Assembly: GCA_016703535.1 (NCBI GenBank)
Contig: JADJBV010000001.1
Span: forward strand, 6,382,270-6,446,269
DNA: 64,000 bases
Source: Deltaproteobacteria bacterium
Lineage (GTDB): Bacteria > Myxococcota > Kuafuiibacteriia > Kuafuiibacteriales > Kuafuiibacteriaceae
Direction of reading: 5' to 3'
Position 1 is the first letter of the stretch, and the number at the start of each line of letters is the position of its first letter. Below are positions 8,321 through 30,166 of this stretch, piece by piece. Position numbers and translations under genes: made by a program. The notes under the pieces are model-generated. The model searched no databases, was not told the DNA's origin, and saw only the letters and a program-made list of their open reading frames with translations.

Positions 8321-9303
8321 TGCGCGCCGCCGTTTGGTTGCTTTTGGCTTGGCCTTCGGTCGCGGGGGCCGAACCCAGCCTACGTTTGTTGGCCGTGGAT
8401 CCGTCGGCCTGTGCGCGTGACGGCGTGGTGAAGGTGGAGCTGGAGGAGCTGGAGCTGGAGGGCGAGGTCCGAGACTTTCCCGCCAACACCTTCCGCTTGG
8501 TCCTCGACGAGTTGACCTTGGGGCAAGAGGCGGTGCACGCGCAGACCCTGGCCCAGTCGGAGGTGCCGCTGTCGATCGCGGTGGTGCTGCAGGCCGACCT
8601 TACTTATCGGCCTGACTTCGAGCGCCTGACCCAACTCACCCGTACTTTCTTGCGCGCCTTGCCCGCTCGAACTCAAGTGGGGGTGTGGACGTACGGCGAC
8701 GCGGTGATCGCCCGGGCCCAAGGCACCACGCCGGATCTGGCCGCCGACAGCATCGCCCAGATCTTTGCGGTGGATCGGGTGGGGAGTTCCGCGCTGCAAG
8801 CCTGGCAACAAGCCTTCACAGCCCTGCGAGCGGCGCCGGGCCGGCGCTTTTTGATCACGGTGGCCGACGGCAAAAACGAGGCCCCCGACCGAGCCGCGAT
8901 CCGCGCGTTCGGGGATCAGCTGGCCGCCGCCGGAATCTTGTTTCATCCCCTCGCCTACTCTCCCGCCGACGATCGGGAGCCGATGCTCCACCTGGGTGAG
9001 TTGGCCAAACGATCGGGCGGCACTTTTCGCTTAGGCACCAGCCTAAGTGATCTCGAGGCCCAGCTCGCCAACCTGAGCGCCCAGCTGGAGCGCCGCTGGA
9101 TCTTGAGTTTTTTGGTGCCGGATCGGTGTGCCCAGCCCCACCAACTCCAGGTTGGCCATGGCGCACTGCGCTCCGAGCCCCGGCCTTTGCCGGCGGTGGT
9201 GCCGCCGCCGCCGCCGGTGGGGATCTACGTGGGGGTCGGGGTGGGCGTGTTGGCGCTGGGAGCCGTGGGATTTTTGGTGCACCGGCGCAGGCGGATGGGG
9301 TGA
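8320..9303 (+). CDS. Secreted vWA-like domain protein with C-terminal TM anchor, 327 aa
   Basis: Signal peptide MRAAVWLLLAWPSVAGA; vWA-like core (RRFLITVADGKNE); C-terminal TM VGIYVGVGVGVLALGAVGFLV + RRRR. Its start overlaps the PP2C stop by 1 nt (TGATG at 8318-8322). Confidence 0.55.
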
Positions 9304-10562
9304 ACGTGGGAGCACCCCATCACCTCACCGATCGAGTCATCGCCGGCTACCGCACGGTGGCCATCGGGACCTTCAACTTCTTGCTGCTCTTTGGGCTGGT
9401 GAACGCCATCGCCCACGCGATCTTGGTCTCGCCGGCGCCCCATCCGGAGGGAGGTCACTTCCTGTCGGCGGGGGCGGCGCTGACGGAGCGCACGGAACTG
9501 TTGCGTGGACGTTATCCGGGGCGAAGTGACGCCGAAATCCGCACCTTGATCGAGACGCCCCAGGTGATGGCCCATCCCAAGCTTGAGTTTATCGGGAGGC
9601 CGGGCACCTCGGGCTTCTACACCGTCGGCGCCGACGGGGTGCGCAGCAACGGAGCGCAGGAGTCGTCCCGAGCCCTCGATGACGCGGTGTGGGTCTTCGG
9701 TGGGTCCACGGCCTTCGGGCACGGCGTGGCCAACGAGGACACCATCGCCGCGGCGCTGGAGCGGCTCGATCCTTCGCGCCGATACTTGAACCTGGGCGTT
9801 CAAGGTTACCACCTGAACCTTGAGTTGGATCGGCTGGTGCATTTGCTCAAGCAAGGCCACCGCCCCCGCCACGTCATCTTCATCGACGGCCTCAACGACG
9901 CCATCGCCTGCCGGGCGAGCAACTTCGCGCCCGAGGACCTGCCCTTCTTCGTCGCCAACGCCTACGGTCACCAGTACAACATCGCCCACGAGGTGCTGCC
10001 CAAGGGGTTGGGGTGGTTCCTGCGGCAGCTCCCGGTCACCAAGCTGATTCGGCGGGAGTGGGCCGCGGGGAAGGCACAAGAAGAACCCAGGGATCCCGGG
10101 TACACCGATCCCCACGATCCGTCGTCACTCTACGTGCGAGATCCGCTGCTCCACTACGAGCTCAACCAGGCGCGAGTTCGGGAGCCCAGCGCCACCCCAA
10201 GCGACGTCGAGAAGTTTCGACGCTACTATCGCGCCAACCTCGAGCTGCTGCGGGGGCTGGAGAAGGGCTTCGGCTTCCGAGGTGACGTCTTCTTTCAGCC
10301 CAACGGCCTGCTCAACCTGGAGACCGGCTTCGTCTTGGATCCCAGCCAGTACCAGACGAGTGAACTCTACCGGAGCCTCGAGGCCATGCAGGCGGCGATC
10401 AAAACCGACCTCGCCGCCGGCCGCTTGCCCGGCATGGTCGATCTGAGCGAGGCGGATCGGAGCTGCCGCGACTGCTACGTCGACGCGGTCCACTACGACC
10501 GGCGCCTGGCCGAGGTCCTGGCTCAACACATCCTCACCACCACCTCCTCGATCGGTCGCTGA
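9300..10562 (+). CDS. Membrane-anchored SGNH/GDSL-type hydrolase (esterase/acyl-hydrolase)
   Basis: N-terminal TM (TVAIGTFNFLLLFGLVNAIAHAILV). SGNH blocks FGGSTAFG (block I, Ser), IDGLNDAIA (GxND) and DAVHYD (DxxH). GTG start at 9300 overlaps the upstream stop (GTGA); alternative GTG at 9306. Confidence 0.55.
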   Translation: MNVGAPHHLTDRVIAGYRTVAIGTFNFLLLFGLVNAIAHAILVSPAPHPEGGHFLSAGAALTERTELLRGRYPGRSDAEIRTLIETPQVMAHPKLEFIGRPGTSGFYTVGADGVRSNGAQESSRALDDAVWVFGGSTAFGHGVANEDTIAAALERLDPSRRYLNLGVQGYHLNLELDRLVHLLKQGHRPRHVIFIDGLNDAIACRASNFAPEDLPFFVANAYGHQYNIAHEVLPKGLGWFLRQLPVTKLIRREWAAGKAQEEPRDPGYTDPHDPSSLYVRDPLLHYELNQARVREPSATPSDVEKFRRYYRANLELLRGLEKGFGFRGDVFFQPNGLLNLETGFVLDPSQYQTSELYRSLEAMQAAIKTDLAAGRLPGMVDLSEADRSCRDCYVDAVHYDRRLAEVLAQHILTTTSSIGR

Positions 10563-18846: not shown

Positions 18847-20205
18847 TCAGCGCGGACAAGGTACGGCGTCGTAGACCTCGGTCCCGTGAGACAAGGACAG
18901 CAGCAGGTGACGGCAGTCGGGGGTCTCGACGAAGCCGATGCCTTCGAAGTCTCCCGGCAAGAAGGTGGTCCCATCGTCCCGCCGCGCCTCGAGGATGGAG
19001 TGCAACTCCAGCGGGTTGAACCGGGAGAAGGCCGCGATGGTCAGGGCATATGGCTGAGGCACGGTGGTGAGGAAGATCAGCGATTGTCGATCGCAGCCAA
19101 GGTTCAGCCAGAACGCGCCTTGGCCGGGGGTGAGCGGAAAACCGACGCCTTCGCCGAGGAAGCCGGTGTCACCCGCCACCGTTGAGCTTCGCACCACCGC
19201 CACCGCGGCGAGGGTGTCGGAGCGGAAGATGAGGGTGCGGAGGTCGCCGAGCAGCACCGGGAAACGAAGGTGATCGGTGGCCTTGGAAAGGACCACCCGA
19301 GGGCGCACAAAAGGCGCGCCGAGCCGCGGGCGGGACGCGACCCAGATCTCGTTGATGGCGATACTCCCGGTGCGGACCTGAAAGAACAGCTCCAGGCCAT
19401 CGGCCCGGACCTGAGGGCGCTCCTGGGCGTAGTCGGCGGGGAGGCCCAGGTCGATCGGCTCGATGCTCCCCGGACGGATCGCGAGGTTCGGTTCGAGCTC
19501 CGCCCGGGCCAACTTCAGGTCCCCTGGGGGGCCGTAGCGATCCGTCGAGAAGTACAAGATCCACCGCCCGTCTTCGACCCCCACCGAAGTGACGGTGTCG
19601 TTGGCGCCCGGGGCAGCGAGGCCGAGCAGCGGGCCTCGGGAGCGATAACAAGCCTCGGCCCGCGGATCGGGCAGCAGGCAATCGTTGTGGGGATAAGGCT
19701 CCTTCAGCAGCGACGTTCGGGCGCAAGGGCAAGGCAACTTGCATTCCTCGGGGTTGGGGCTGAGCCCGTAACAACCGCCCGCGCCGAGGCAGGCGCCGCG
19801 TTCCGGCGCGGCGATGCGCACCGCCGCCAGCCGCAGTTCGGCGTCCGTGGCGTCGACGGGTGACCAGCGGGTGTCGACCTTCTCGAAGGTGGCCAGCCCC
19901 TCTGGGAGTGGTCGCCCATCGCCGCGAGGAAGTTGACCTTCCGGGAGGGCCAACTCACTCAAGGGTGCGCCCAGGTATCGCAAGTAGAGGGGGCCCGGCG
20001 GCGCGGCGAAAGGCGCCGGCCCTACCCCCTGATGCGCGATGACCACTGGGCCGTCCTCCGCCAGGACCACGATCAACATCGATCGGGCACCCGCGGGCGG
20101 GACGGGCCACTGTAGACCCTCGGCGGGGCTGCAGGCCGTGAAGCAAGCGGCGACGAGGGCCGAGACCCGCCGAGCGAGGCCCGGGAATGGACGAGGCCCG
20201 GTCAC
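18847..20205 (-). CDS. Hypothetical lipoprotein, 452 aa
   Basis: Lipobox LVAACFTAC; coherent composition. Confidence 0.5.
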   Translation of the reverse strand: MTGPRPFPGLARRVSALVAACFTACSPAEGLQWPVPPAGARSMLIVVLAEDGPVVIAHQGVGPAPFAAPPGPLYLRYLGAPLSELALPEGQLPRGDGRPLPEGLATFEKVDTRWSPVDATDAELRLAAVRIAAPERGACLGAGGCYGLSPNPEECKLPCPCARTSLLKEPYPHNDCLLPDPRAEACYRSRGPLLGLAAPGANDTVTSVGVEDGRWILYFSTDRYGPPGDLKLARAELEPNLAIRPGSIEPIDLGLPADYAQERPQVRADGLELFFQVRTGSIAINEIWVASRPRLGAPFVRPRVVLSKATDHLRFPVLLGDLRTLIFRSDTLAAVAVVRSSTVAGDTGFLGEGVGFPLTPGQGAFWLNLGCDRQSLIFLTTVPQPYALTIAAFSRFNPLELHSILEARRDDGTTFLPGDFEGIGFVETPDCRHLLLSLSHGTEVYDAVPCPR

Positions 20206-20325
20206 CCTCGGAAGCTACGTCGCCCCCTCGACCCCTGTCGAGGAGGTCGGTTCAGCGCGGGCCGGCGGAGCTCACGCATTCGCCGCTAGCGAGGGGCGAG
20301 CGATCGTGGTTAGGCAACTTCCTTC

Positions 20326-20727
20326 ATGAACGCGATCTACATGGCCCACTCCGGACTCCGCTACCTCGTCCTCCTGTCGGGGTTCATCACCCTGGCCCTG
20401 CTGTTGATCGGCCAACTCCAAGGCAAGGCCTTCGCGCCCATTCATCGGATCTCCAGCACCGCCTACGCGGGCCTGCTCCACCTGCAGGTCGTCCTGGGCA
20501 TCGTCTTGGTCGGGATGGGCCGCTTCTACCCGGCGCTGATCGGCCACCTGGCGATGATGTTGGCCGCCGCGGTCGGGCTCCAGTTCGCCCTCACCTTCAA
20601 CAAGAAGCGCGGGACCCCCAACCTCAAGCTCCCGCTGATCGCGGTCGCGGTGTCGCTGGTGTTGATCGCCGCGGGCGTGATGGCGATCGGCCGGGGCCTC
20701 TTTCAGAGCATCGCCTTCTCTTCTTGA
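20326..20727 (+). CDS. Small integral membrane protein (4 predicted TM), 133 aa
   Basis: Four hydrophobic helices; AT-richer codons than surrounding artefact ORFs. Confidence 0.55.
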   Translation: MNAIYMAHSGLRYLVLLSGFITLALLLIGQLQGKAFAPIHRISSTAYAGLLHLQVVLGIVLVGMGRFYPALIGHLAMMLAAAVGLQFALTFNKKRGTPNLKLPLIAVAVSLVLIAAGVMAIGRGLFQSIAFSS

Positions 20728-20777
20728 GGCCCGTGGGCTGCATTGACTCCGCCCAGGTAGTCCCTCAAGAAGTGGGG

Positions 20778-21890
20778 GTGCCCTCCCGCACCCTGCTGCT
20801 CCTCATCGTGTTGACGGTCGCCGGGCTGGCGGCGTGCGAAGACCCGGCCAGCGACGCGGGGCCTGACGCCGGCTTCGTCGACGCGGCACCGCTGGACGCC
20901 ACACCCGCGGATCGGGGGGTCCAGGACGCGGCGCCCGACTCAGGCGCGGACTCGGGGCCCAGTGACTCGGGGATCTTGGACGCCGATCCGGCCGACGCCG
21001 ATCCGGCCGACGCAGATCAGGCCGACGCCGATCCGACCGACGTTGATCCGGCCGACGTTGATCCCACGGACGCCGACCCTCCGGACACCGGCGCCCCCGA
21101 CACCGGCCTCAGGGACGACGCGGGTTGTCCGTTCCCCAGCGGCGCGATCGACGATCCCACGGCCGTCGGTCTGCCCTCGGGTGTGGTGTTGTGGCTCCGA
21201 GGCGAACGTGGCGTCGCTACCTTGCCCGACGGGATCTCAGTGTGTCGCTGGGAGGACGTCAGCGGCAACGGCCGACACTTCTTGCCCGCCACCGCCACCT
21301 TGCCCAGCTACCAAGCGGCCGCGGTCGGCGGCCGCCCGGCGGTGGTCTTCGTGACCAACTCGCGGCTCGAGCGGCCCGACGTGCTCGGCCTGGGCGCGAC
21401 CCAAGGCCGGGCCATCGCCGTTCGCTCCCAGATCGTGGACACCACCCGTCGTTTTGGATCGCTGCTGCAAGGCAACCGTGGCAACAACTGGGAGTACCTG
21501 GAGCTGGAGCAGAACACCTTCAACACCGTCGGCAGTCGGGTCGGCGTCTACTTGACGGCCAACGCCTACGACTCGGACGTGGCCACCTCCACCGCCGCCC
21601 GCACCCACGTCTACTCGATCACCACCATGGTCACCGGCACCACCCTCCCCGGCGCCTTGTCCTACGCGGTCGACGGCGTGGAGCGCACCTTGACCCGCAC
21701 CCCCGGCGGCAACGGCCCCAGCGGCCCGGGCAACAACCTGGTCTGGGACTTCAGCGGCGCCAACTTCACCTCGATCGGTGAGACTGCAACCCCCGGCTTC
21801 ACCGGCGGCGCCATCGGCGAAGTGTTGGTGTTCGACCACCCGCTGACCCCGCAGGAGCGAGCGGCCGTCGAAGCCCACCTGGGCCGCTGA
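20778..21890 (+). CDS. Lipoprotein with (D-P-A-D-A)n low-complexity linker and C-terminal concanavalin/LamG-like domain
   Basis: GTG 20778, lipobox LTVAGLAAC; DADPADADPADADQADADPTDVDPADVDPTDADPPD; C-terminus GEVLVFDHPLT. Confidence 0.5.
   Translation: MPSRTLLLLIVLTVAGLAACEDPASDAGPDAGFVDAAPLDATPADRGVQDAAPDSGADSGPSDSGILDADPADADPADADQADADPTDVDPADVDPTDADPPDTGAPDTGLRDDAGCPFPSGAIDDPTAVGLPSGVVLWLRGERGVATLPDGISVCRWEDVSGNGRHFLPATATLPSYQAAAVGGRPAVVFVTNSRLERPDVLGLGATQGRAIAVRSQIVDTTRRFGSLLQGNRGNNWEYLELEQNTFNTVGSRVGVYLTANAYDSDVATSTAARTHVYSITTMVTGTTLPGALSYAVDGVERTLTRTPGGNGPSGPGNNLVWDFSGANFTSIGETATPGFTGGAIGEVLVFDHPLTPQERAAVEAHLGR
20960..21075 (+). repeat. Tandem 15-bp-unit repeat (gatccggccgacgcc and variants) encoding (DPADA)n
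   Basis: Direct reading of nucleotides 20990-21070. Confidence 0.7.
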
Positions 21891-21962
21891 GCGCATCCGC
21901 TGGATCGACTGACGCGTGGGCCGGGAAATCTGCGCCTGGGCCGAGGCCGGACACGTAGAGCC

Positions 21963-23120
21963 ATGGGCCCGATGCTGTCGAACTTCAAAGGCGCTTGGTC
22001 CCTGCTTCCCCTGTTTTGGGCGGCCTGCACCGCGGACGCGGGCCTGCTCCAGGGCGGTGAGTCCCCAGACCAGGGGGCGGGGCGCGGCGGGGGTACCCAA
22101 GGGACCGATGGCGGCGCCGATCCGGACCTCGGGATCCCCTTCGACGCGGGCCTCGTGGTGGACGCCGGCGCGATAGCGGACGCCGGCTCACCCGCGGAGG
22201 TGGAGCAGGCCTTGGTGCGCGCCGAGTGCCGCTACGCCGCGAGGTGCCTTCGGCGCTTCTACTTCGACGCCTTCGGCGCCGATCCCGGCTGCCTCGAGTC
22301 GGGCGCTTACGGGTTGGGCCGAAGCGCCCGGGCGCGGATCGAGGCGGGTCGAGCGGTGGTCGATCCCGAGCAGCTGGCCGCCTGCCTCGCGGCGATGGAG
22401 TCCAGCGGCTGCGAAGAGACCACTCGAGCCCAAGCCTGCGATCGAGCCCTGGTGGGGACCGTGGCCCAAGGTGAAGGTTGCCTGAACTCGGCCGAGTGCG
22501 GCCCGGGCCTGCGGTGCTTCGGGATCAACTGCGGGACCTGCCAGCCGATGCTCCCCACCGGCGCTTCCTGCGACGCCAACGCGGGCGGCTGTGAAGGTTA
22601 TTGTTTCACCCAGATCGCGGGCACCCCCGGCTCCTGTCTGCCCAACCACCTGCTCGAGGGTGAGTTGTGCAGCGGGTCGTTCTCGGACTGCGAACCCCCG
22701 CTCCGCTGCGTTCGGATCAACGAAGACGAACGTCGTTGTCAGGCCGCGCCCGTGCCCGGAGCCGCCTGCAGCGACCTGGGCGGCGGCGCGAGCTGCGACT
22801 ACGGCCACGCCACCTGCAACAACGGCGTCTGCGAATGGCTGGTCTTCGTCGATCCCGGCGAACCCTGTGACCAGGATCGGCTCTGCCGCGGCAGCTGCTT
22901 CCAGGGCCTGTGCCGCGCCTACCCTCAGCTCGGTGAGGCATGCCCGGCCTTCTCCGGTGCCTGCGCGGGCGCCCTGGGCCGGTGCGGCAGCGACGGGATC
23001 TGCCGCCCCCGCCCCAAGGATGGCGAGCCCTGCCAAGGTTACGACAGCTGCGAACGTGGCCTGCTATGCGGCATCGACCCGCCCGTCTGCACTTCTCGCC
23101 CGTGGGAGACCTGCAACTGA
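21963..23120 (+). CDS. Cys-rich lipoprotein (about 40 Cys), hypothetical, 385 aa
   Basis: Lipobox LPLFWAACTA; regular Cys spacing; antisense ORF 22188..23036 rejected. Confidence 0.55.
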   Translation: MGPMLSNFKGAWSLLPLFWAACTADAGLLQGGESPDQGAGRGGGTQGTDGGADPDLGIPFDAGLVVDAGAIADAGSPAEVEQALVRAECRYAARCLRRFYFDAFGADPGCLESGAYGLGRSARARIEAGRAVVDPEQLAACLAAMESSGCEETTRAQACDRALVGTVAQGEGCLNSAECGPGLRCFGINCGTCQPMLPTGASCDANAGGCEGYCFTQIAGTPGSCLPNHLLEGELCSGSFSDCEPPLRCVRINEDERRCQAAPVPGAACSDLGGGASCDYGHATCNNGVCEWLVFVDPGEPCDQDRLCRGSCFQGLCRAYPQLGEACPAFSGACAGALGRCGSDGICRPRPKDGEPCQGYDSCERGLLCGIDPPVCTSRPWETCN

Positions 23121-23143: not shown

Positions 23144-23794
23144 TCAGCGTAGCGCCGGTCCTTGACCTTCCGCGCCCTCCGGGCCCTGCTTCTTGCGGTC
23201 GCCGAACAACATGGCTCGGATGCCGGTGTGAGGCTCGGAGACCGTGATGGCCAGGTACACGTGGACGATGAGGAACATCGTGAAGACATAGGCCGTCACC
23301 GAGTGCCCGATCGCGACCGGGAGGAGCCCCGGCAGGCTGGCGACCTTCTCGGGAACCGATAACGGAAAGAGCAAGAGCAGGCCCGTGCCGATCTGCACCG
23401 GGAACATGAGGAAAACCGCCCCGATGTAAGAGACCTGCTGCAGCGGGTTGAAGCGACTGACGACCGTCGCCGGAAATGGGTGGTGCCCGCCCTGGAAGAT
23501 GTCCGAGAGATAATAACGAACCTGCCTGGCCGCGCGCCGAAAGAACGGGCGCCGGGGGACGTACTGCCTCCAGTGTCCCGTCCAGACCATACTCGCCAGG
23601 TAGAAGACATAGGCGAGTGTGCAGGCCACCCCCGTGGCGTTGTGACCCAGGACCGCCCAGCGAAAGTAGCCGCCGGCCCCGGCCTCGCCGTAGTGCAGCG
23701 CGAAGCCCGTCGCTACCAGGGCCAGAAACAGGAACGCGTTCACCCAGTGCCAGGCCCGCAGCCATCCTGGGAACATCGGCGTCGGCTTCTTCAT
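23144..23794 (-). CDS. Membrane b-type cytochrome subunit (Ni/Fe-hydrogenase/formate dehydrogenase-gamma/PhsC-like), 216 aa
   Basis: MFPGWLRAWHWVNAFLFLALVATGFALH; four TM with conserved His; ATGA overlap with the upstream multiheme gene. Confidence 0.7.
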   Translation of the reverse strand: MKKPTPMFPGWLRAWHWVNAFLFLALVATGFALHYGEAGAGGYFRWAVLGHNATGVACTLAYVFYLASMVWTGHWRQYVPRRPFFRRAARQVRYYLSDIFQGGHHPFPATVVSRFNPLQQVSYIGAVFLMFPVQIGTGLLLLFPLSVPEKVASLPGLLPVAIGHSVTAYVFTMFLIVHVYLAITVSEPHTGIRAMLFGDRKKQGPEGAEGQGPALR

Positions 23795-24762
23795 GGGTGA
23801 GGACCTCCCGGGCCGATTCCGCGCTTCCTACGCACCAAGGCGGCCGCGGTGCGCAACAGCGCGTGACCCAAGATGCCCAGGAAGGTCAGCGTGGCGAGCG
23901 ACATGCCTATCAAGTCGAGGGTCTGATTTCGTGTCGCGCCGATGACATAGGCCTCGTTCAAGATCGCCGCGTTCATGAACCCATACTTCTCTTGCTCGAC
24001 CGCGTGCGCGTAGCGATAGGTCTTGAACTTCAGCACCGACGCCTCTTGATGGCAGGACTCGCACTTCGAGAGCGCTTGGGCCTTGGGCAGGATACGATGG
24101 CTCCCCACGACGCCCTCGGAGTTCGTGTGGCAGTCGACGCAGCGGACCGAACGCCAGTGGAGGTCGCGGTTGGGCAGCCACTGATGGGCCGCGTCAAGAT
24201 CGGGGGGCGCGCGATGGGCGAAGGTCCGGAACTCGAGCTCAGAGCCGTGGCAGCGCAGGCATGCCTGGTTGTGCTCGAGGGACTCGTCGGGAGTCATGCC
24301 GAAACGGATCCGGTGGGGATCGTGGCACCGGGCGCAGGTGAACTGCACGCTCTTGGTGGAGTGTACGCTCTGATCGAACTCACGGATGATCCGGACGAGG
24401 TCGACCTTGTGGCCCCGTTCGGAGCCGGCGGGTGCGGGGGCCCGAGCCTCGAACTCAGCGAGCACGCGCTCGTCCAGGTGACAGTGCGCGCAGTCCACGG
24501 GACGAAGGTCCTCGTCCTCCTTGTCATGCGCGATGCTGACGTCCTCCACGTCGCCGTGACACGAGATGCAGCCATGGAGGGCATGGACGGAGGCCCGGTA
24601 GGCGACCAGATCGATCTTGGGCGCCCGCGCGTCGCCCGTGCCCGCGTGGCAGATGAAGCACTCGGAATCGCGCGCCGTCCTCGGGATCGGGTTGTCCGCG
24701 ACCGCAGAGGTGGGCCACCCCAGCCCGGCCGCGAGCAGCCCGAGGATCGTTATGGTTCTCAT
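23791..24762 (-). CDS. Heptaheme cytochrome c with signal peptide and C-terminal TM anchor
   Basis: Seven CxxCH motifs (CFICH, CISCH, CAHCH, CARCH, CLRCH, CVDCH, CESCH). ATG 24760-24762 with GGAGG 6 nt upstream. ATGA overlap with the 22-heme gene. Confidence 0.8.
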   Translation of the reverse strand: MRTITILGLLAAGLGWPTSAVADNPIPRTARDSECFICHAGTGDARAPKIDLVAYRASVHALHGCISCHGDVEDVSIAHDKEDEDLRPVDCAHCHLDERVLAEFEARAPAPAGSERGHKVDLVRIIREFDQSVHSTKSVQFTCARCHDPHRIRFGMTPDESLEHNQACLRCHGSELEFRTFAHRAPPDLDAAHQWLPNRDLHWRSVRCVDCHTNSEGVVGSHRILPKAQALSKCESCHQEASVLKFKTYRYAHAVEQEKYGFMNAAILNEAYVIGATRNQTLDLIGMSLATLTFLGILGHALLRTAAALVRRKRGIGPGGPHP

Positions 24763-26270
24763 CGACCGCCTCCGCCGCTCGTGAAGGGGTGGCAGCCGTG
24801 ACAGGTCTGCGCCCCTGGCTCGTGCGTCCGTTGCGGCTCGTGGCACGCCCCCACGCAGCTGGCGCGGTCAAAGGCCGTAGCCTGGTCGTGGAAGCGATGG
24901 CAGTCCGCACAGACCCCGTGCTTAGGGATCATGTGGAGGGACGGCAGTGGCGGAGCATGACACTTCGTGCAGGGCTGCGGAGCCGCCGGGCCCTTGGGGC
25001 CGTGCGCTCGATGGCAGTCCGCGCAGGCCCGGGCGGGCTCGCTGTGTGGCCCAAGGCCCTGCTGAGCGTGGCATTCGACGCAGGTCTTCTTTAGCGCACC
25101 GTCGTGGGTCTGGTGGCAGTCCGCGCAGACGTCGTGGCCACGAGGCGCGCTGGTGTGTTCGGTCGGATGACACTTGGCGCAGGCTGGCGGCCGCAGGGCC
25201 GGGTCGTGGGCCTGGAGGTGGCAGGTGGTGCAGCGCTCGTGCCCCTTCACCGTCTTCACGTGCACGGGGTCGAGGACCGAAGGCGCAGCCGAAAGTGCAT
25301 GGCAGCGAACACACAGATCCTCAGGGGGCACCGGAGTCCGGATCTTTCCCGGCGCGTGGCAGCTCGCGCAGGCGACACGACGGCCATGGAACGCGGTGTC
25401 TGAAGCGGCTTGGAGGTGGCAACTCGAGCAGGGCGCTGATCGTACGGTGCCGCCGCCCAGATGGATATTCTGGTGGGCGTCGTGGCAGTCCTTGCACGTC
25501 CCCGGCTGGGTGGCGCTGAGCACCTCCCGGGCGTGCCCAACCTGGTGGCAGCTTTCGCACGGACGAACCCCGGAGCCGGCCCCGTGGGGCTCGTGGCAGC
25601 TCACGCAGCGCGTGTGCCCGGGCAGCCTGAGCTTCTGCGCTTCGTGGCAGCCCTGGCAGCGCTCGGCCGCGTCCTCCTTCGTTCGGTGGCCGACGTGGCA
25701 CTCGATACACTGCGCCGGACCTTTCAACGCCGAGTTGTGCGCAGTGAAGCTGCTCTCGTGGCACCCGGCGCAGTCCCCGGGGCGCACCGCGGATTCGCCG
25801 TGCGGCGTATGGCACGCCTTGCAGGCCTCGGCCGCATGAACCGTGATGAGCGGCGCCTTGCTCGCCCAATCTTGTGCGGGAGCGCCCCGAGTCTGCTGCC
25901 CCTCTGCGGTGTGACAGCGAAGACAGCCCCACGGTGCCGCGGTCGTCGCGAGGAAGTCATGGCAGGTCAGACACTCTTTTGCGTCATCGCTGGCGGCGGC
26001 CCGGTGGACCGCCGACGCGCTCTTCTCGTGACAGCCGAGGCAACGCTGAGTCTTGGAGAGCACCTTGGCGCCCTCGATCCGGTGGCAGTCCGCGCAGACC
26101 GCCGGCTTCTCGGCGTTCAGGTGAGCCAGGTGGAGCGCACTCTGCAGGGCCTTGGCTTGCTCGGGGGTCGGCTCTTGGCCGGCGTCAGGGCTCGTCGCCG
26201 GGCGTTCCTGTGGGGTGCAGCTCCAGCCGAGACCCGCGAACAGGCAAGCGACGGCGAGCGATCTCAGCAT
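24759..26270 (-). CDS. Multiheme cytochrome c lipoprotein, 22 CxxCH + 1 CxxxCH motifs, 503 aa
   Basis: Lipobox VACLFAGLGWSC; heme motifs counted directly in the translation. Confidence 0.85.
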   Translation of the reverse strand: MLRSLAVACLFAGLGWSCTPQERPATSPDAGQEPTPEQAKALQSALHLAHLNAEKPAVCADCHRIEGAKVLSKTQRCLGCHEKSASAVHRAAASDDAKECLTCHDFLATTAAPWGCLRCHTAEGQQTRGAPAQDWASKAPLITVHAAEACKACHTPHGESAVRPGDCAGCHESSFTAHNSALKGPAQCIECHVGHRTKEDAAERCQGCHEAQKLRLPGHTRCVSCHEPHGAGSGVRPCESCHQVGHAREVLSATQPGTCKDCHDAHQNIHLGGGTVRSAPCSSCHLQAASDTAFHGRRVACASCHAPGKIRTPVPPEDLCVRCHALSAAPSVLDPVHVKTVKGHERCTTCHLQAHDPALRPPACAKCHPTEHTSAPRGHDVCADCHQTHDGALKKTCVECHAQQGLGPHSEPARACADCHRAHGPKGPAAPQPCTKCHAPPLPSLHMIPKHGVCADCHRFHDQATAFDRASCVGACHEPQRTHEPGAQTCHGCHPFTSGGGGR

Positions 26271-26438
26271 CGGCTGACGGCGACGCTACTTCGGCGCAGA
26301 GGGAATTCAAAACGCGGTCGTCGTGACCGCGGAGTAACCTACCAAGAGGTAACAATTTGCGGGGCTGCGCCTGTGGGGGTCGAGCGGAAGTATAGGGTCC
26401 AAACCCTACAGCAGACGAACCTGGGCATTTAGGGCAGC
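26271..26438. promoter_or_regulatory. Putative promoter region of the cytochrome operon (AT-richer: gaattcaaaacgcgg..., ggtaacaatttgcgg)
   Basis: Non-coding, locally lower GC, upstream of the first operon gene. Confidence 0.3.
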
Positions 26439-26636
26439 CTACTGGCGCGGGCGACGTCCGAGCAGCAGAGCAAACACGTCGGCCGAGCCGCCTTCGCTGA
26501 GGCCCGCCCGACCCCTCCACGCCGTCGGGTTCTCAAACGTCCCGAAGATCAGATCCCAAAGCGCGATGTCGCCGAAGTTGAGCGGCGCCCGATCACGATC
26601 GTGATGCAGCGCGTGGCTCTCGAGCGGATGGGTCAT
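26439..26636 (-). pseudogene. C-terminal remnant (65 aa) of a fatty-acid hydroxylase/sterol desaturase superfamily gene
   Basis: HALHHDRDRAPLNFGDIALWDLIFGT is the last His box plus the NFG...WD.LFGT tail of that family. The N-terminal about 200 aa are missing. The upstream neighbour ends 30 nt away. Confidence 0.55.
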
Positions 26637-26667
26637 GAATCGCAGCTATCGCTACCATCGACCCGGC

Positions 26668-27969
26668 CTATGGCCGAGCAGGCGCCCAGGCGAGGCCGTA
26701 AGGCAGGGCACCGTGGACCCCAAAGGCCGCCCGCACCCGCTGGTTGCCGTCCAAAAACAGGACCCGGTGGGCCTCGTCGAGCTCGGGCCACTCCATGCGT
26801 TCGAGCTGGTTGTCCAACACGTTCGGCGGAACGGCGTCGGTCCGAGCCCGGTTGCGTCGGTGGTAGTCGGCGAGGTCCAGGTGAAAGACCACCAAGGTGA
26901 CCAAAGTGCCGTAGTCGAAGCCCAAACCAGCGACCCGGGTCCGGAAGTCCTGGCGCAAGCTGGTGGCGTCCCACACCACCGGCCGTTGTTTTCGCAAGCT
27001 GGCTTTCAATCGCTCTCTGCCTTCGGCGAGGACCCGATCGTTGGCGCCCTGATCACCTCGGTCCGAGCCGAGTTCTTCCCGCAGATCGTCGAGAGAGAGG
27101 TGATCGAAGCCGGCCAGGTGTTTTTGCGCGAAGGTGGTCTTGCCCGAGCCGCTGGGGCCAACGGTGATCACCAGATCCGAACGGGCCTCTCGGGCCTGAA
27201 AACTCCGGGCCACCGCCTCTTCTAGGCTGTGGATCTCACCCCGCTCTAAGCTGCGCCGGGCCTCGGACAGCGCAAAATCGATCACTTGATCGCCGTGACC
27301 CGCGAGGGACTCCACCAGCCGCGCCCGCCAGCTCGGGTCCTGCTCGCCGTGCCGAACGAACGCGCCGTAGTCTTCGGCGAAGAGCCGATACAGATCGATC
27401 TTCTCGATGGCCTCGGCCCGATCCCGGCAGGTCCGGCCCCGCATGTCCGCCTGCTCGACCCAATAGAGGAGCTCCGGATCGGCCAGGCGGCTGACCCGCT
27501 GATAGGCCCCGGCGCTCCGCTCCTTCACCACCAAAAACTTGGGCTCGTGGTGATGGCCGACCAAACCCAACAACACCTCCAGGGACGGATACGGCAACTC
27601 CTCCAACAACCGCGGCGCCAAATAGGAACGCCCCGCGGCCTCGTGACCCCGGGCGACGATGCGCTCCACCCCCTTCAGCTCCTGGGGTCGGGTGCAGATC
27701 GGCTTGGCGATGTCGTGGAGCAGGGCCCCCAACACCAAGAGCAATCGGCCCTCCCCTTCCAGGTGGGCGGCCGGCCCCGCGAGGAGTTGGTAGGCCTCGT
27801 CCATCACCATCTGGGTGTGGATGTGCACGTCGCCTTCGGCGTGCCACTCCGGATCTTGCGGCGTCTCTCGAAAGCGCCGCAACAACGGCAGCCGATCGCC
27901 CAGGGCCTCGACGCACTCGTCGAGGTTCGGAGACGCACCCCGACGAATCTCATCAAAGAAGGTCTTCAT
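26668..27969 (-). CDS. HD-domain phosphohydrolase fused to a P-loop (polynucleotide-kinase-like) NTPase, 433 aa
   Basis: HD motif LLHDIAKP; Walker A VITVGPSGSGKTTF; start ATG 27967-27969 in ATGA overlap with the RNA ligase stop. Confidence 0.65.
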   Translation of the reverse strand: MKTFFDEIRRGASPNLDECVEALGDRLPLLRRFRETPQDPEWHAEGDVHIHTQMVMDEAYQLLAGPAAHLEGEGRLLLVLGALLHDIAKPICTRPQELKGVERIVARGHEAAGRSYLAPRLLEELPYPSLEVLLGLVGHHHEPKFLVVKERSAGAYQRVSRLADPELLYWVEQADMRGRTCRDRAEAIEKIDLYRLFAEDYGAFVRHGEQDPSWRARLVESLAGHGDQVIDFALSEARRSLERGEIHSLEEAVARSFQAREARSDLVITVGPSGSGKTTFAQKHLAGFDHLSLDDLREELGSDRGDQGANDRVLAEGRERLKASLRKQRPVVWDATSLRQDFRTRVAGLGFDYGTLVTLVVFHLDLADYHRRNRARTDAVPPNVLDNQLERMEWPELDEAHRVLFLDGNQRVRAAFGVHGALPYGLAWAPARP

Positions 27970-28610
27970 GACTTCTTCCCGGGTTCTCGCAGGCCGTTGG
28001 GCGTCACCACCCCGTGCATCCAATGATCGTCGGTCTGAACGTGACCGCGCCGCACCCACTTGGCCACGTGCTCCGAAAAGCGCGCGTACGGGAAGGCGCC
28101 GGCGCTGCGCACCACGTACCCTTCACAACGTTGGAGATCGAGCTTGAGGCTCCGGAGCCGGGCGTCGTCGTAGGGCCCTTCGTAGAGCGTCGGCACCAAC
28201 TCGAGGCCCAGCCGCATGGCCCAAGCCTTGGTCTCGGCCCACGACAAACAAGTGTTGGTCTCATCCCAGATCGAAAAGACAAAGAAGTAGCTGGCCAGAT
28301 CTTCGTACGCCACCGAATGCCGCGCGTAGAGATTTTCGCCGCAGACCCGAAACCCCGCCGGGATCTGGTAGCCGATCTCGCCCTGCAGCCGCTTCAGCCA
28401 ATCCCGGGACGGGTGGTGACGGCCATCCAGCGAGCGGGCGTGGAGCCCATCTTGGTAGAGGGTCGAGTTTTCGCCGTCGAGCTTTTCGGTGACCACCACC
28501 GGGGCCGACGACAAAGCCGCCGGGACCTCGGTGACCAGATCGTCGCTGCTGACCCCGGGAGACCAGGGCAGATGGGGCGTCCTAGGATACTTGAAGCGTT
28601 GGGTCGCCAT
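27966..28610 (-). CDS. ATP-dependent RNA ligase (PF09414 RNA_ligase family), 214 aa
   Basis: MATQRFKYPRTPHLPW...VVVTEKLDGENSTLY (nucleotidyltransferase motif I KxDG). ATG 28608-28610. Confidence 0.7.
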   Translation of the reverse strand: MATQRFKYPRTPHLPWSPGVSSDDLVTEVPAALSSAPVVVTEKLDGENSTLYQDGLHARSLDGRHHPSRDWLKRLQGEIGYQIPAGFRVCGENLYARHSVAYEDLASYFFVFSIWDETNTCLSWAETKAWAMRLGLELVPTLYEGPYDDARLRSLKLDLQRCEGYVVRSAGAFPYARFSEHVAKWVRRGHVQTDDHWMHGVVTPNGLREPGKKS

Positions 28611-28616
28611 GACCCA

Positions 28617-28623
28617 CCTCCTT
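28617..28623 (-). promoter_or_regulatory. Ribosome-binding site AAGGAGG of the RNA ligase gene
   Basis: Plus-strand cctcctt, 6 nt upstream of ATG. Confidence 0.6.
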
Positions 28624-28699
28624 TGGCGGAGCCCAAGGCCCACGCCATCCCGCGATAGAGCATCGAGCGCAGAGCGGCTCGAAGGAACCGGGACCGAGG

Positions 28700-29450
28700 A
28701 GATTACATGGCGGAGGCTCGGAGAGATAAATAGGCTAAGCCAAGGCTCCGAAGGAGGTCAACCAGAGTTGCAGGACTTCAAGCTTCAGCGGACCAGAGAC
28801 CAACGACGACGATGGGATAGCAACCGGGTGGACCAGATCCGAGCGCTGGAAACGGCCAAACCCCCGCAGATCCCGGTGGCCACCAACACCCGCCCTTCGA
28901 CCGGGCAAGGAGCCGCGCCTGCTGCCCGCGGAAGATGGCTTCCACGAAGACCCGCGCCATCGCCGCCAGGCCGTCTGCACGGACCGCCAACAACCCGACC
29001 AACTCCGAAGGCGGAGACAGAACGTACTGCCGAATCGGAACATCGGGGAACACACGCTCCACGAAGTGCGTCGCGACGTCGTCCATCCACCGCGCGCCGC
29101 AGCTCGGGCAGAGGCCGCGCCCTTTGGTCGCTCCGGCCATCCTGGCCTCTCGCGACACTTCCCGCGTCCTGTGGGTCGCACGAAAACGCCAGCGCCCGCT
29201 CCACTTGGCAGTCCGGGCAGCGCAGCCTGACGAAGCCCGCCTCGGGGACACCGCACACCAGGAACCGCTCCACTGCCCGGCCCACGAACTTGGGGATGGG
29301 GACCCCGGCCTCCTTGCTCTGCGCCACTAGCGCCGGCCACCAGCGCGTCACCAGTCGGTGCAGCACGCCCGAGCGCGGATCGCGAGCGGAGTAGCGCCGA
29401 GGACGATCCACGCCAGGCCCGTAGGCCAGCCGCGTGCCCAGCCCCGGTGC
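28700..29450 (-). mobile_element. IS91-family (Y2 rolling-circle) transposase remnant, copy 1: N-terminal Zn-finger part only, degraded
   Basis: ORF 28785..29411 carries FLVCGVPEAGFVRLRCPDCQVERALAFSC (Zn_Tnp_IS91-like) then loses the frame. It shares a near-identical segment with copy 2. Confidence 0.55.
28938..29100. repeat. Direct repeat A (about 165 bp), near-identical to 39548-39715
   Basis: cttcgaccgggcaagg.gccgcgc.tgctgcccgcggaagatggcttc.acgaagacccgcgccatcgcc...aacaacccgaccaactccgaaggcgg.gacagaacgtact seen in both copies. Confidence 0.75.
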
Positions 29451-29803
29451 TCATGGTTCGGACGAGATTCGTCCGGATTTCGCAGGACGTCCGGAATCCG
29501 GACGGACGCGGGTTACCGGTCGCGTGTGCAAGGGCGCGGCCTGCGGGCTCGGGAAGACCTGGGTCGGCCCACCGGCCCGCATCGAAAACGCGTGGCGCTG
29601 GCCGCTGATCGACGCGTCGCAGACCGCGCAAACCCACGCTTCGTCTGGGTCGTCGAAGCTGAGGGCCCCGGGCCGCTGCACCGCAGTGCCTCGCCCTGTG
29701 TTCGGCTGCGGCTCGAGGGCGAACATCGCTCGCCCTCGAGTCTACTCGGTTACTCGATCCCGGACAGCGCGCGCTGCGCCCGAGCCATGGCGAAGGGTAG
29801 CCC

Positions 29804-30166
29804 TTAGGGGACGAAGACCTCGACCCGATCGACCGCGCCGAAGGCCATCACCGAGGCTCCGCCCGGCACGTAGATCCGATCACCAATCGCCGCGGCGCCT
29901 GTCCCGTGCCGGCCGGTGGTCATCGGGCTCAAGCTTGACCACCGCTCGGTCTCAAAGCTCCAAGCCTCGACCGCGTCAAAGACCGCGCTGGCGGCGCCGG
30001 TGTTGCCTTCGCCGCCGAAGACGTAGAGCGCCTCGTTGAGGATCGCGGCGGCGGCGCCTCCTCGAGAGGTCGGCATCGGGGGCCCGGCGCTCCAGGTACC
30101 GGCGGTGGGATCGTAGAGGTCGAGCTGAGCGGTGTGCCCCGTGATGGGTCTCCTTCGGAAAAGGTT
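29804..30166 (-). pseudogene. 3' fragment (about 115 codons) of a Kelch-repeat protein gene truncated at its 5' side
   Basis: Frame reads ...RRRPITGHTAQLDLYDPTAGTWSAGPPMPTSRGGAAAAILNEALYVFGG...GDRIYVPGG. An in-frame stop is at 30167-30169, exactly where GC content drops. Confidence 0.6.

What the first reader, a model, noticed from the sequence alone, without database searches (positions are those of the whole stretch)
23144..26270. Tightly coupled operon of a 22-23-heme lipoprotein cytochrome c, a 7-heme membrane-anchored cytochrome c and a cytochrome b
All three junctions are ATGA overlaps. The first product is a lipoprotein with 22 CxxCH plus one CxxxCH in 503 aa (about one heme per 22 residues, a nanowire-like density). 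The second has seven hemes and a C-terminal TM helix. The third is a four-helix b-type quinol-interacting subunit. This is the architecture of a quinol-to-periplasm/extracellular electron conduit (as in metal-reducing Anaeromyxobacter/Geobacter), embedded here among lipoprotein genes. An AT-richer promoter-like region lies upstream (26271-26438).
Basis: partly seen in the sequence, partly recalled or inferred. Interest (0 to 1): 0.6.

Follow-up and report, generated by a model that had tools for sequence, protein, structure and literature searches.

The report
Membrane cytochrome operon with 23-haem wire
Three tightly coupled genes in an uncultured sludge myxobacterium encode a Geobacter-CbcBA-type membrane complex that moves electrons between the quinone pool and the periplasm, together with an undescribed lipid-anchored protein carrying 23 haems; it is a variant of a known respiratory module, not a new kind of system.

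Summary
On the minus strand lie A (24759-26270, 503 aa, 22 CxxCH + 1 CxxxCH), B (23791-24762, 323 aa, 7 CxxCH, C-terminal membrane helix) and C (23144-23794, 216 aa, four-helix cytochrome b). There are two junctions, not three, and both are ATGA overlaps. No promoter consensus was found upstream.

B and C form the two-gene module known from Geobacter sulfurreducens as CbcA/CbcB, a quinol:cytochrome c oxidoreductase needed for extracellular respiration at low potential. The pair recurs next to the related cytochrome b genes in almost all of the 80 genomes sampled. The B family's best solved relative is the 7-haem chain 28pb (5.6e-22), which is probably CbcA.

A belongs to a small, unnamed, mostly myxobacterial family (119 cluster representatives at E<=1e-30 among 1.84 billion). 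It is built of tandem two-haem units, has enough conserved histidines for all-bis-His ligation, and is tethered by a lipid or an N-terminal helix. In relatives it sits directly upstream of several different quinol dehydrogenases, often beside MtrC-like and putative porin-cytochrome genes.

The likely role is a membrane-tethered relay from the quinol oxidase across the periplasm. No outer-membrane part is encoded in this window. All three genes are under purifying selection. This is a new variant of a known kind, of moderate interest.

The parts
24759..26270 (-). Gene A: 503-aa, 23-haem lipoprotein cytochrome c. The signal peptide ends at Cys18. A linker of about 40 residues follows, then haem motifs from residue 59 to 494. 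From residue 150 the protein is built of tandem two-haem units of 34-38 aa (CxxCHxxH ... CxxCH ... H).
   Evidence: The motif count is. All 23 motifs and 23 further His are invariant or at least 90% conserved in 43 family members. Pfam gives only generic c3/c7/paired-CxxCH hits. dN/dS is 0.25 against two relatives.
26217..26270 (-). Signal peptide and lipobox of A (MLRSLAVACLFAGLGWS-C18).
   Evidence: Cys at the end of the hydrophobic core is conserved in the nearest relatives. More distant members carry an uncleaved N-terminal membrane helix instead.
23791..24762 (-). Gene B: 323-aa, 7-haem cytochrome c of the CbcA type, with an N-terminal signal peptide and a C-terminal membrane anchor.
   Evidence: 7 CxxCH. 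Seven further invariant His (60, 79, 134, 150, 193, 202, 222) are candidates for bis-His ligation. The family profile hits PDB 28pb_A at 5.6e-22. B is 30-39% identical over its full length to the 7-haem ORFs next to cytochrome b in Caldithrix, Marinilabiliales, Bryobacterales and Thiobaca. It is identical to MBK6687917.1, annotated 'hypothetical protein'.
23833..23922 (-). C-terminal transmembrane helix of B (about residues 281-310), with invariant His300 and near-invariant Arg304 close to its cytoplasmic end, followed by RRKR.
   Evidence: Hydropathy profile. AlphaFold helix 280-313 with pLDDT 83-96. His300 is invariant in 39 sequences and the equivalent His is present in all 8 pairs taken from named genomes.
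23144..23794 (-). Gene C: 216-aa, four-helix di-haem cytochrome b of the CbcB / HydC / FdnI / PhsC type. It is the presumed quinol/quinone site.
   Evidence: PF01292 at 1.1e-21 over the full profile. It is PhsC-like at 123.8 bits, below the 204-bit cut-off. His16, 51, 164 and 178 are invariant and align with the His of FdnI chain 1kqf_C; from my recollection of the FdnI structure those are the four haem-b ligands H18, H57, H155 and H169. The protein is MBK6687916.1.
24759..24762 (-). ATGA stop/start overlap between A and B. GGAGG lies at 24769-24773.
23791..23794 (-). ATGA stop/start overlap between B and C. GGGAGG lies at 23804-23809.
26271..26437 (-). Intergenic leader/promoter region of the operon (60% GC), containing a hairpin with a T-run at 26313-26331. 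The promoter was not identified.
   Evidence: No sigma-70 or sigma-54 consensus. No Rfam family and no unusual RNA fold. The stretch 26295-26437 does not align with the 95%-identical relative L005.

Best explanation
The three genes form one translationally coupled operon for an inner-membrane electron-transfer chain of 32 haems.

- C is a four-helix, di-haem cytochrome b that exchanges electrons with the membrane quinone pool. In myxobacteria this is menaquinone, by established knowledge.
- B is anchored beside C by a C-terminal helix and carries seven bis-His c-haems in the periplasm. B and C together are a CbcA/CbcB-type quinol:cytochrome c oxidoreductase.
- A is a membrane-tethered cytochrome with 23 bis-His haems in tandem two-haem units. 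It takes electrons from B and relays or stores them across the periplasm, playing the part that the dodecahaem CbcC and the PpcA-type carriers play in Geobacter.

Shown here: the gene structures, the haem and ligand motifs, the membrane segments, homology to the widespread 7-haem + cytochrome b module, and purifying selection.

Inferred: physical B-C and A-B contact, the direction of flow (most likely quinol to periplasm), low haem potentials, and the final acceptor.

A further inference concerns energy coupling. His300 and Arg304 of B lie near the cytoplasmic-side b-haem (His16/His178 of C). If the quinone site is there, as in FdnI, outward electron flow would be helped by the membrane potential. 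[quoted passage not shown]
For: Gene anatomy and coupling.

C:
- PF01292 over the full profile.
- PhsC-like, as CbcB homologues are usually annotated.
- Four invariant His that align with the FdnI His I recall as the haem ligands.

B:
- 7 CxxCH plus 7 invariant distal His, and an invariant His in the C-terminal helix. This is the description of CbcA given by Joshi et al..
- The B-family profile hits the 7-haem PDB chain 28pb_A at 5.6e-22, ten orders of magnitude better than the next hit. A 2026 review reports a newly solved CbcA structure.

The B+C module:
- In nearly all of the 80 related cytochrome b loci from species-representative genomes, the b gene is directly preceded by a 7-haem ORF (typically about 290-350 aa) or by a 13-haem variant.
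- These loci include Caldithrix and Marinilabiliales, which Joshi et al. name as cbcBA carriers.
- Fused c-b versions exist.

A:
- 23 motifs and 23 conserved extra His.
- Tandem two-haem units.
- Family members sit directly upstream, mostly with 4-nt overlaps, of CbcAB, of fused multihaem-cytochrome b proteins and of an NrfCD-type module, and next to NrfH-like genes. They are often beside an OmcA/MtrC-family decahaem cytochrome (402 bits), an OmcB-like cytochrome, and a pair made of a protein of about 400-470 aa with no haem motif (where translated) and no family match and a cytochrome of about 350 aa carrying 12-13 haems where counted.

The operon as a unit:
- With the 62%-identical relative, only the three genes are shared.
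- dN/dS is 0.17-0.34 for all three genes.
- In Geobacter, reduced CbcA passes electrons to CbcC and to PpcA-E in vitro.
Against: - No Geobacter CbcA or CbcB sequence could be fetched. The link rests on architecture, on transitive homology, and on a PDB entry whose identity as CbcA I infer (the review prints '2BPB', the hit is '28pb').
- The 28pb alignment covers only the first six haems.
- Joshi et al. describe three conserved His in CbcB. This family has four.
- No BccR-like regulator gene and no sigma-54 promoter is present.
- No promoter was found at all, and the 143 nt upstream have been replaced relative to a 95%-identical relative.
- No outer-membrane conduit, MtrC-like or porin-like gene is in the window, so the acceptor is unknown.
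- A is not related to CbcC beyond generic multihaem similarity.
- The AlphaFold models are of moderate confidence (pLDDT about 75) and gave no structural matches.
- The membrane to which A's lipid anchor is sorted cannot be predicted.
- There are no expression or biochemical data.
Confidence: 0.72

Rival explanations
1. Same complex, opposite direction. A collects electrons from outside or from the periplasm (reduced iron, humics, a partner cell) and B+C reduce the quinone pool, as proposed for CbcBA in the syntrophic sulfate reducer Seep-SRB2.
For: A published proposal has CbcBA running in reverse. Electron exchange between Geobacter CbcA and its partners is reversible in vitro. Nothing in the sequence fixes the direction.
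Against: Bis-His multihaem chains are usually low-potential, and the review lists CbcA at -279 mV, which suits handing electrons on. Relatives of A sit in clusters with MtrC/OmcA-type cytochromes that are typical of outward transfer. No electron-donor-oxidising enzyme is nearby.
Confidence: 0.12
2. A is mainly a periplasmic electron store (a capacitor or redox buffer) that lets the cell keep oxidising quinol during the anoxic phases of activated sludge. It is not a wire to an outer-membrane conduit.
For: The window and the 17-21 kb loci read around the two relatives lack any adjacent outer-membrane conduit genes. A has 23 haems in one small protein. A capacitor role has been suggested for very haem-rich sludge cytochromes.
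Against: Most other sampled family members are embedded in clusters of the putative porin-cytochrome and MtrC type, which argues for relay. The two roles are not exclusive. The rest of the 6.9 Mb genome was not examined.
Confidence: 0.12
3. B and C are the membrane anchor and electron-entry module of a periplasmic reductase (thiosulfate/polysulfide reductase, nitrite reductase or hydroxylamine oxidoreductase), and A is that enzyme or its donor.
For: C's best NCBIfam hit is the thiosulfate reductase cytochrome b subunit (8.3e-36), and cluster mates are annotated that way. B has weak NrfH and DmsE hits.
Against: All these hits lie far below the curated cut-offs (123.8 against 204 bits; 28.6 against 134 bits). 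There is no molybdopterin, Fe-S, NrfA or HAO gene in the operon or its flanks. A has no CxxCK, no Pfam or NCBIfam hit to a nitrite-reductase or hydroxylamine-oxidoreductase family, and enough conserved His for all haems to be six-coordinate, leaving no obvious open catalytic haem. B has 7 haems and a C-terminal anchor, whereas NrfH/NapC proteins have 4 haems and an N-terminal anchor.
Confidence: 0.03

Closest known systems
CbcBA (part of the Cbc5 cluster, GSU0593-GSU0594) of Geobacter sulfurreducens: inner-membrane quinol:cytochrome c oxidoreductase
   Same: A seven-haem periplasmic cytochrome with a C-terminal membrane helix that carries a conserved His. The gene lies immediately upstream of a four-helix, di-haem, 'thiosulfate-reductase-like' cytochrome b. 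The b subunit is the more conserved of the two (81% against 76% identity to the 62% relative). A very haem-rich cytochrome is encoded in the same cluster.
   Different: No sigma-54 promoter and no BccR-type regulator. The cytochrome b here has four invariant His, not the three reported. The large cytochrome lies upstream instead of downstream and is not related to CbcC. The region between haems 6 and 7 is much shorter than in 28pb. The host is an uncultured activated-sludge myxobacterium labelled 'Deltaproteobacteria bacterium'.
CbcC (GSU0592) and GSU1996: dodecahaem c7-type polymer cytochromes of Geobacter
   Same: A long chain of closely packed low-spin haems in a small protein, encoded beside CbcBA. 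CbcC accepts electrons from CbcA in vitro. The A-family profile hits GSU1996 (3ov0) at 2.4e-16 over almost its whole length.
   Different: A has 23 haems, not 12. Its repeat is a two-haem unit of 34-38 aa, not a three-haem c7 domain. It has no Met available for the His-Met haems that I recall for GSU1996. It is lipid-anchored rather than soluble. The similarity is no better than to HmcA or MtrA, so it is generic.
CbcL (GSU0274) type fused cytochrome b-c quinol oxidoreductases
   Same: In relatives (L087, L088, L090) the A-family gene is followed by one 714-760 aa protein with 11 c-haems and a PF01292 cytochrome b domain. This is the same functional pair as B+C in fused form.
   Different: In the window the two parts are separate genes of the CbcA/CbcB type. 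Joshi et al. report no sequence homology between CbcL and CbcB.
FdnI (formate dehydrogenase-N) and HyaC/HydC (NiFe hydrogenase) cytochrome b subunits
   Same: The same four-helix fold family. The C-family profile hits 4gd3 at 3.2e-9 and 1kqf_C at 4.9e-9, and the four invariant His align with the FdnI His I recall as the haem ligands. Joshi et al. note that a partner-subunit helix also contributes a His in the related NiFe hydrogenases.
   Different: The partner is a multihaem cytochrome, not a formate dehydrogenase or a hydrogenase. Electron flow is presumably from quinol outward rather than into quinone.
HmcA (16-haem) of Desulfovibrio and MtrA (10-haem) of Shewanella
   Same: These are the best solved-structure hits of the A-family profile (1z1n at 6.3e-22, 6r2q_A at 1.5e-16). 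They are elongated bis-His haem chains that link membrane complexes.
   Different: There is no HmcB-F and no MtrB/MtrC partner here. The haem count and repeat unit differ. The similarity is driven by the repeated CxxCH/His pattern.

Membership tests
CbcBA-type quinol:cytochrome c oxidoreductase (Geobacter GSU0594/GSU0593) | Periplasmic subunit with seven CxxCH haem sites | tested here: met
   7 CxxCH in B. They are invariant in 39 family members.
CbcBA-type quinol:cytochrome c oxidoreductase (Geobacter GSU0594/GSU0593) | C-terminal transmembrane helix on the c subunit, carrying a conserved His | tested here: met
   Hydrophobic segment at residues 281-310. AlphaFold helix 280-313. His300 is invariant. 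The feature is as described.
CbcBA-type quinol:cytochrome c oxidoreductase (Geobacter GSU0594/GSU0593) | Adjacent four-helix, di-haem cytochrome b (PF01292, 'thiosulfate reductase-like'), with gene order c then b | tested here: met
.
CbcBA-type quinol:cytochrome c oxidoreductase (Geobacter GSU0594/GSU0593) | Sequence homology to the G. sulfurreducens proteins themselves | tested here: inconclusive
   The B-family profile hits 28pb_A (278 aa, 7 CxxCH) at 5.6e-22, and B alone hits it at 8.7e-9. That 28pb is CbcA is inferred from the review. No CbcB sequence was obtainable, and the top 80 loci of the genome scan contained no Geobacter.
CbcBA-type quinol:cytochrome c oxidoreductase (Geobacter GSU0594/GSU0593) | Homology to the pairs in taxa that the CbcBA paper lists as homologue carriers (Caldithrix, Marinilabiliales) | tested here: met
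   C is 33-36% identical, with E about 1e-37 to 1e-38. B is 30-31% identical over its full length, with E from 1e-38 to 1e-47. The 7-haem + cytochrome b pairing is shown.
CbcBA-type quinol:cytochrome c oxidoreductase (Geobacter GSU0594/GSU0593) | Sigma-54 promoter and neighbouring BccR-type regulator (a feature of the operon in Geobacter, not of the proteins) | tested here: not met
   No -24/-12 match upstream of A. No regulator was found among the flanking genes.
CbcBA-type quinol:cytochrome c oxidoreductase (Geobacter GSU0594/GSU0593) | Required for respiration of acceptors below about -0.21 V | not testable with these tools
   This needs genetics and electrochemistry.
c7-type polymer cytochromes (GSU1996, CbcC/GSU0592) | Tandem three-haem c7 domains | tested here: not met
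   The haem spacing and the unit alignment show two-haem units of 34-38 aa.
c7-type polymer cytochromes (GSU1996, CbcC/GSU0592) | One His-Met haem per domain (from memory of the GSU1996 structure) | tested here: not met
   Only one internal Met (M447) in A. There are 23 conserved non-motif His for 23 haems.
NrfH/NapC/CymA quinol dehydrogenases | Four haems, an N-terminal membrane helix, and a score above the family cut-off | tested here: not met
   B scores 28.6 bits against a 134.2-bit cut-off. It has 7 haems and a C-terminal anchor.
NrfA nitrite reductase / hydroxylamine oxidoreductase | Catalytic haem (CxxCK or an open coordination site) and a family-level profile match | tested here: not met
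   No CxxCK. No hit to a nitrite-reductase or hydroxylamine-oxidoreductase family in Pfam or NCBIfam. PDB hits to these enzymes are generic.
Thiosulfate reductase PhsABC | PhsC equivalog score plus PhsA (molybdopterin) and PhsB (Fe-S) genes | tested here: not met
   123.8 bits against a 204-bit cut-off. No such genes in the operon or its flanks.
Filament ('nanowire') cytochromes OmcS/OmcE/OmcZ | Sequence relationship to the filament subunits | tested here: not met
   Among the 60 best PDB hits of the A-family profile, the only candidate is 7lq5_A, listed as 'Cytochrome c', 258 aa; I recall this entry as OmcZ. It is marginal at 6.9e-4. I recognised no OmcS or OmcE entry among those hits.
Bacterial lipoproteins | Signal peptide ending in a lipobox Cys | tested here: inconclusive
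   Cys18 follows a 14-residue hydrophobic core and is conserved in the nearest relatives, which have classical ASC, AGC or ACG boxes. The window's own box, GWSC, has an atypical Trp at -2. No dedicated predictor was available.

The most novel reading that the evidence does not exclude
The A family would be a hard-wired, membrane-tethered haem cable long enough to cross the periplasm. I estimate about 18-23 nm for 23-27 haems, by analogy with the 12-nm, 12-haem GSU1996. It would act as a universal adaptor in Myxococcota. It would plug into at least four unrelated quinol dehydrogenase types (CbcAB, fused b-c, NrfCD-type, NrfH-type) on one side and into outer-membrane porin-cytochrome/MtrC conduits on the other. 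It would thereby replace the diffusible periplasmic carriers used by Geobacter and Shewanella.
Probability: 0.2. Interest if true: 0.6.

Novelty: new variant of a known kind. Interest (0 to 1): 0.38.

Why it matters
CbcBA has been proposed as a marker gene for extracellular electron transfer in uncultured bacteria. This window shows the module in an abundant type of wastewater myxobacterium, where its products are still annotated 'hypothetical protein' and 'cytochrome b/b6 domain-containing protein'.

The partner protein A defines a small, unnamed family of 21-29-haem cytochromes. Its gene neighbourhoods suggest it links whichever quinol dehydrogenase a myxobacterium has to its outer-membrane cytochromes.

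If that is right, it gives a concrete and testable candidate for how electrons cross the periplasm in a phylum whose metal and electrode respiration is known mainly from Anaeromyxobacter. It would also improve predictions of iron- or humic-respiring capacity in sludge and soil metagenomes.

Tried and rejected
- **Single-sequence PDB searches.** Searches with A and with C found nothing. Only family profiles gave hits.
- **Genome scan.** The narrower alignment worked, but its 80 best loci held neither Geobacter nor the window's own lineage, so no direct comparison with GSU0593/GSU0594 was possible.
- **CbcA structure paper.** An attempt to read it failed, and searches for a preprint found nothing.
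- **Promoter.** There was no sigma-70 match. The sigma-54 pattern occurred no more often than chance and not upstream of A.
- **Leader RNA.** No Rfam family and no unusual stability (z = -0.72).
- **Repeats.** The upstream 175 nt are not repeated elsewhere in the window or in the loci fetched by then.
- **Rejected ideas.** A thiosulfate reductase, Nrf or HAO system; a c7-type polymer identity for A; a functional link to the flanking lipoprotein genes, which are not conserved with the operon; and a third coupled gene after C, where there is only a 26-codon ORF.

Full report
**1. What is in the sequence**

- **A** (24759-26270, 503 aa) has 22 CxxCH and one CxxxCH. Shuffling its own residues gives 0.47 CxxCH on average and never more than 5.
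- **B**: the longest ORF begins at a GTG at 24846. The biologically sensible start is the ATG at 24762, which overlaps A's stop (ATGA) and is preceded by GGAGG. This gives 323 aa with 7 CxxCH, a signal peptide and a C-terminal hydrophobic helix.
- **C** (23144-23794, 216 aa) starts at a second ATGA overlap preceded by GGGAGG. It matches the prokaryotic cytochrome b561 family PF01292 over the whole profile (1.1e-21).

Two points need correcting. There are two junctions, not three. The region upstream of A (26271-26438) has 60% GC, but it has no sigma-70 or sigma-54 consensus, no Rfam match and no unusual fold. It does carry a terminator-like hairpin at 26331-26313.

The window comes from a 6.9 Mb MAG contig labelled 'Deltaproteobacteria bacterium'. 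B is MBK6687917.1, annotated 'hypothetical protein'. C is MBK6687916.1, annotated 'cytochrome b/b6 domain-containing protein'.

**2. The operon is a discrete, selected unit**

- A relative with 94-96% protein identity (L005/L006, JGI metagenomes) and one with 62% identity in A (L001/L002) carry the same three genes with the same 4-nt overlaps.
- Against L002, only the operon itself aligns (window 26273-23192, 73% nucleotide identity).
- Against L005, the operon and the upstream RNA-ligase/HD-kinase genes are 95% identical. The downstream lipoprotein genes are different or rearranged, and the 143 nt directly upstream of A do not align.
- dN/dS is 0.17-0.34 for all three genes in both comparisons, so they are maintained by selection.
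- Conservation rises from A (63%) to B (76%) to C (81%).

**3. B and C are a CbcA/CbcB-type module**

Joshi, Chan and Bond (bioRxiv 10.1101/2021.04.15.440034) describe CbcBA of Geobacter sulfurreducens as follows:

- a four-helix di-haem cytochrome b (CbcB);
- a seven-haem cytochrome (CbcA) anchored by a C-terminal helix that holds a His;
- essential for respiration below about -0.21 V;
- homologues in other Deltaproteobacteria, Caldithrix, Bacteroidetes and others, where the b subunit is usually annotated 'thiosulfate reductase-like'.

Every one of these architectural features is present here.

*The cytochrome b.* C's best NCBIfam hit is the thiosulfate reductase b subunit, at 123.8 bits and well below the 204-bit cut-off. 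In 24 homologues His16, His51, His164 and His178 are invariant. They align with the His of formate dehydrogenase FdnI that I recall as its four haem-b ligands.

*The seven-haem subunit.* In 39 B homologues the seven CxxCH, seven further His, and His300 and Arg304 near the cytoplasmic end of the anchor helix are invariant or nearly so.

*Distribution.* A scan of species-representative genomes found at least 501 loci encoding relatives of the cytochrome b. In nearly all of the 80 best, the b gene is directly preceded by a 7-haem ORF (typically about 290-350 aa). A subgroup has a 13-haem ORF of about 490 aa instead.

*Direct comparison.* B is 30-39% identical over its full length (E from 1e-33 to 1e-56) to these ORFs in Caldithrix, Carboxylicivirga, Saccharicrinis, Ancylomarina, Bryobacterales and Thiobaca. 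All of them end in a helix with the His. Fused c-b forms also exist, as the CbcBA paper noted.

*Solved structures.* The B-family profile hits one PDB chain far above all others: 28pb_A, a 278-aa 'Cytochrome c' with seven CxxCH, at 5.6e-22. A 2026 review reports a newly solved CbcA structure (printed there as '2BPB') and cites Antunes et al. 2026. I infer that 28pb is that structure. I could not verify this, and I could not obtain Geobacter sequences.

*Differences from Geobacter.* There is no sigma-54 promoter and no BccR-like regulator. The b subunit has four rather than three conserved His. The segment between haems 6 and 7 is shorter.

**4. A is an undescribed multihaem family, not CbcC**

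- All 23 motifs are conserved across 43 family members. In distant members the CxxxCH is a CxxCH. A further 23 non-motif His are invariant or at least 90% conserved, which is enough for bis-His ligation of every haem. There is only one internal Met.
- From residue 150 the protein is a tandem array of two-haem units of 34-38 aa, of the form CxxCHxxH...CxxCH...H. From the first haem motif to the C-terminus this is about 19 residues per haem.
- Pfam and NCBIfam give only generic c3/c7/paired-CxxCH hits.
- The family profile hits HmcA (6.3e-22), MtrA (1.5e-16) and GSU1996 (2.4e-16) about equally. The similarity is therefore generic and does not indicate a c7 polymer.
- An exhaustive search of 1.84 billion cluster representatives found only 407 relatives at E <= 1e-3 and 119 at E <= 1e-30. 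The window's clade is a single 50% cluster, and the next representative is 41% identical.
- Most members have 25 or 27 haems and about 575 aa.
- The nearest relatives have a lipobox Cys. More distant ones have an uncleaved N-terminal helix. Membrane tethering is therefore a family trait.

**5. What the neighbourhoods of A's relatives say**

Nine further loci were read.

| Locus | Query protein | What sits beside the A-family gene |
|---|---|---|
| L087, L088, L090 | P0013, P0009, P0019 | Directly followed, with overlap, by a 714-760 aa protein with 11 c-haems fused to a PF01292 cytochrome b |
| L092 | P0024 | Directly followed, with overlap, by a 690-aa multihaem protein (no cytochrome b domain on record) |
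| L089 | P0032 | Followed by a 4-haem cytochrome, a 4Fe-4S protein and an NrfD-type membrane protein |
| L003, L091, L093 | P0054, P0116, P0090 | An NrfH-like gene lies within about 3 kb |

Six of these clusters (L003, L088, L090-L093) also contain a pair made of a protein of about 400-470 aa without any family match and a cytochrome of about 350 aa. In the three pairs translated (L003, L088, L090) the first protein has no haem motif and the cytochrome carries 12-13 haems. Five of the six also contain an OmcB-like or MtrC-like cytochrome, and L088 holds a true OmcA/MtrC-family decahaem cytochrome (402 bits against a 209-bit cut-off).

These look like complete envelope-spanning electron-transfer clusters, in which A lies between the outer-membrane parts and the quinol dehydrogenase. 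That the protein of about 400-470 aa is a porin is my inference and was not tested.

In the window's own clade, only A and the CbcAB pair are together. No other multihaem gene lies in the 64 kb window.

**6. Mechanism**

The best-supported reading is a 32-haem chain. Quinol is oxidised at C. Electrons pass through two b-haems to the seven c-haems of B, and then to the 23 haems of the tethered A, which relays or stores them in the periplasm.

- Shown: the parts and their conserved ligands.
- Inferred: the subunit contacts, the direction of flow and the acceptor.

In Geobacter, reduced CbcA passes electrons reversibly to the dodecahaem CbcC and to PpcA-E, which gives a precedent for the A-B step. 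The position of His300/Arg304 of B near the cytoplasmic-side b-haem suggests a quinone site on that side, as in FdnI. In that case outward electron flow would draw on the membrane potential. This would fit CbcBA's reported low growth yield, but it is speculation.

Reverse operation and a capacitor role cannot be excluded. A reductase-anchor role is effectively excluded.

**7. Verdict**

The B+C pair is a new member of the known CbcBA family. The combination with a non-orthologous, lipid-anchored 23-haem partner encoded upstream makes the operon a new variant of a known kind. Interest is moderate. The more interesting question is whether the A family is a periplasm-spanning adaptor for interchangeable quinol dehydrogenases.

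Noticed in passing
window 26438-26640 (-): This is the 3' third of a fatty-acid-hydroxylase-family gene, ending ...NFGDIALWDLIFGTFENP.... The 95%-identical relative L005 has the intact 242-aa gene (9103-9831). The window has lost about 620 nt of it, so this is a gene remnant immediately upstream of the cytochrome operon.
   Followed up: partly
window 26295-26437 (-), compared with L005 9833-9977: The 143 nt directly upstream of gene A do not align with L005, although both flanks are 95-96% identical. Each version has a different hairpin followed by a shared TTGAATT(C/T)CCT. The promoter/leader region seems to have been replaced.
   Followed up: partly
window 18856-23120, compared with L005 13230-18852: The lipoprotein genes downstream of the operon are highly variable. 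The convergent Cys-rich 385-aa ORF (21963-23120 +) has no counterpart in L005, which has an unrelated same-strand lipoprotein gene instead. The neighbouring genes are 72-80% identical and in a different order.
   Followed up: partly
window 26668-28643 (-): An RNA ligase (PF09414) and an HD + AAA_33 kinase-like protein form an overlapping gene pair, a likely RNA-repair pair. It is conserved with L005/L006.
   Followed up: no
window about 28785-38000: A weak IS91-type transposase zinc-finger fragment (28785-29411 -) is followed by a lower-GC island (56-64% against about 67%). The island encodes Methyltransf_34, DUF1848, a radical-SAM ThiC-like protein, a SIR2_2 protein (33723-35132 -) and a DUF488 protein. 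L005 has a type I restriction-modification system on the same side. This may be a variable defence or DNA-modification island.
   Followed up: no
window 52140-56267 (-): A 1375-aa protein with Big_5 and LVIVD repeats and a C-terminal di-haem CCP_MauG/RoxA-like region (2 CxxCH). Apart from A and B, it is the only ORF of at least 80 aa in the window with more than one CxxCH motif.
   Followed up: no
L007-L086: The partners of the CbcAB-like pair vary by lineage. In many Bacteroidota, Gammaproteobacteria and other loci, an 8-haem ORF of about 720-740 aa follows the b gene. In some Bacteroidota and relatives a 19-haem ORF of about 930-1080 aa follows it. Ignavibacteria and Kapaibacteria have a 13-haem ORF of about 490 aa in place of the 7-haem one.
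   Followed up: no
L088 812-3082: An OmcA/MtrC-family decahaem cytochrome (402 bits) in a myxobacterial MAG carries an N-terminal collagen-like repeat. A similar collagen hit occurs in L092 and L093.
   Followed up: no
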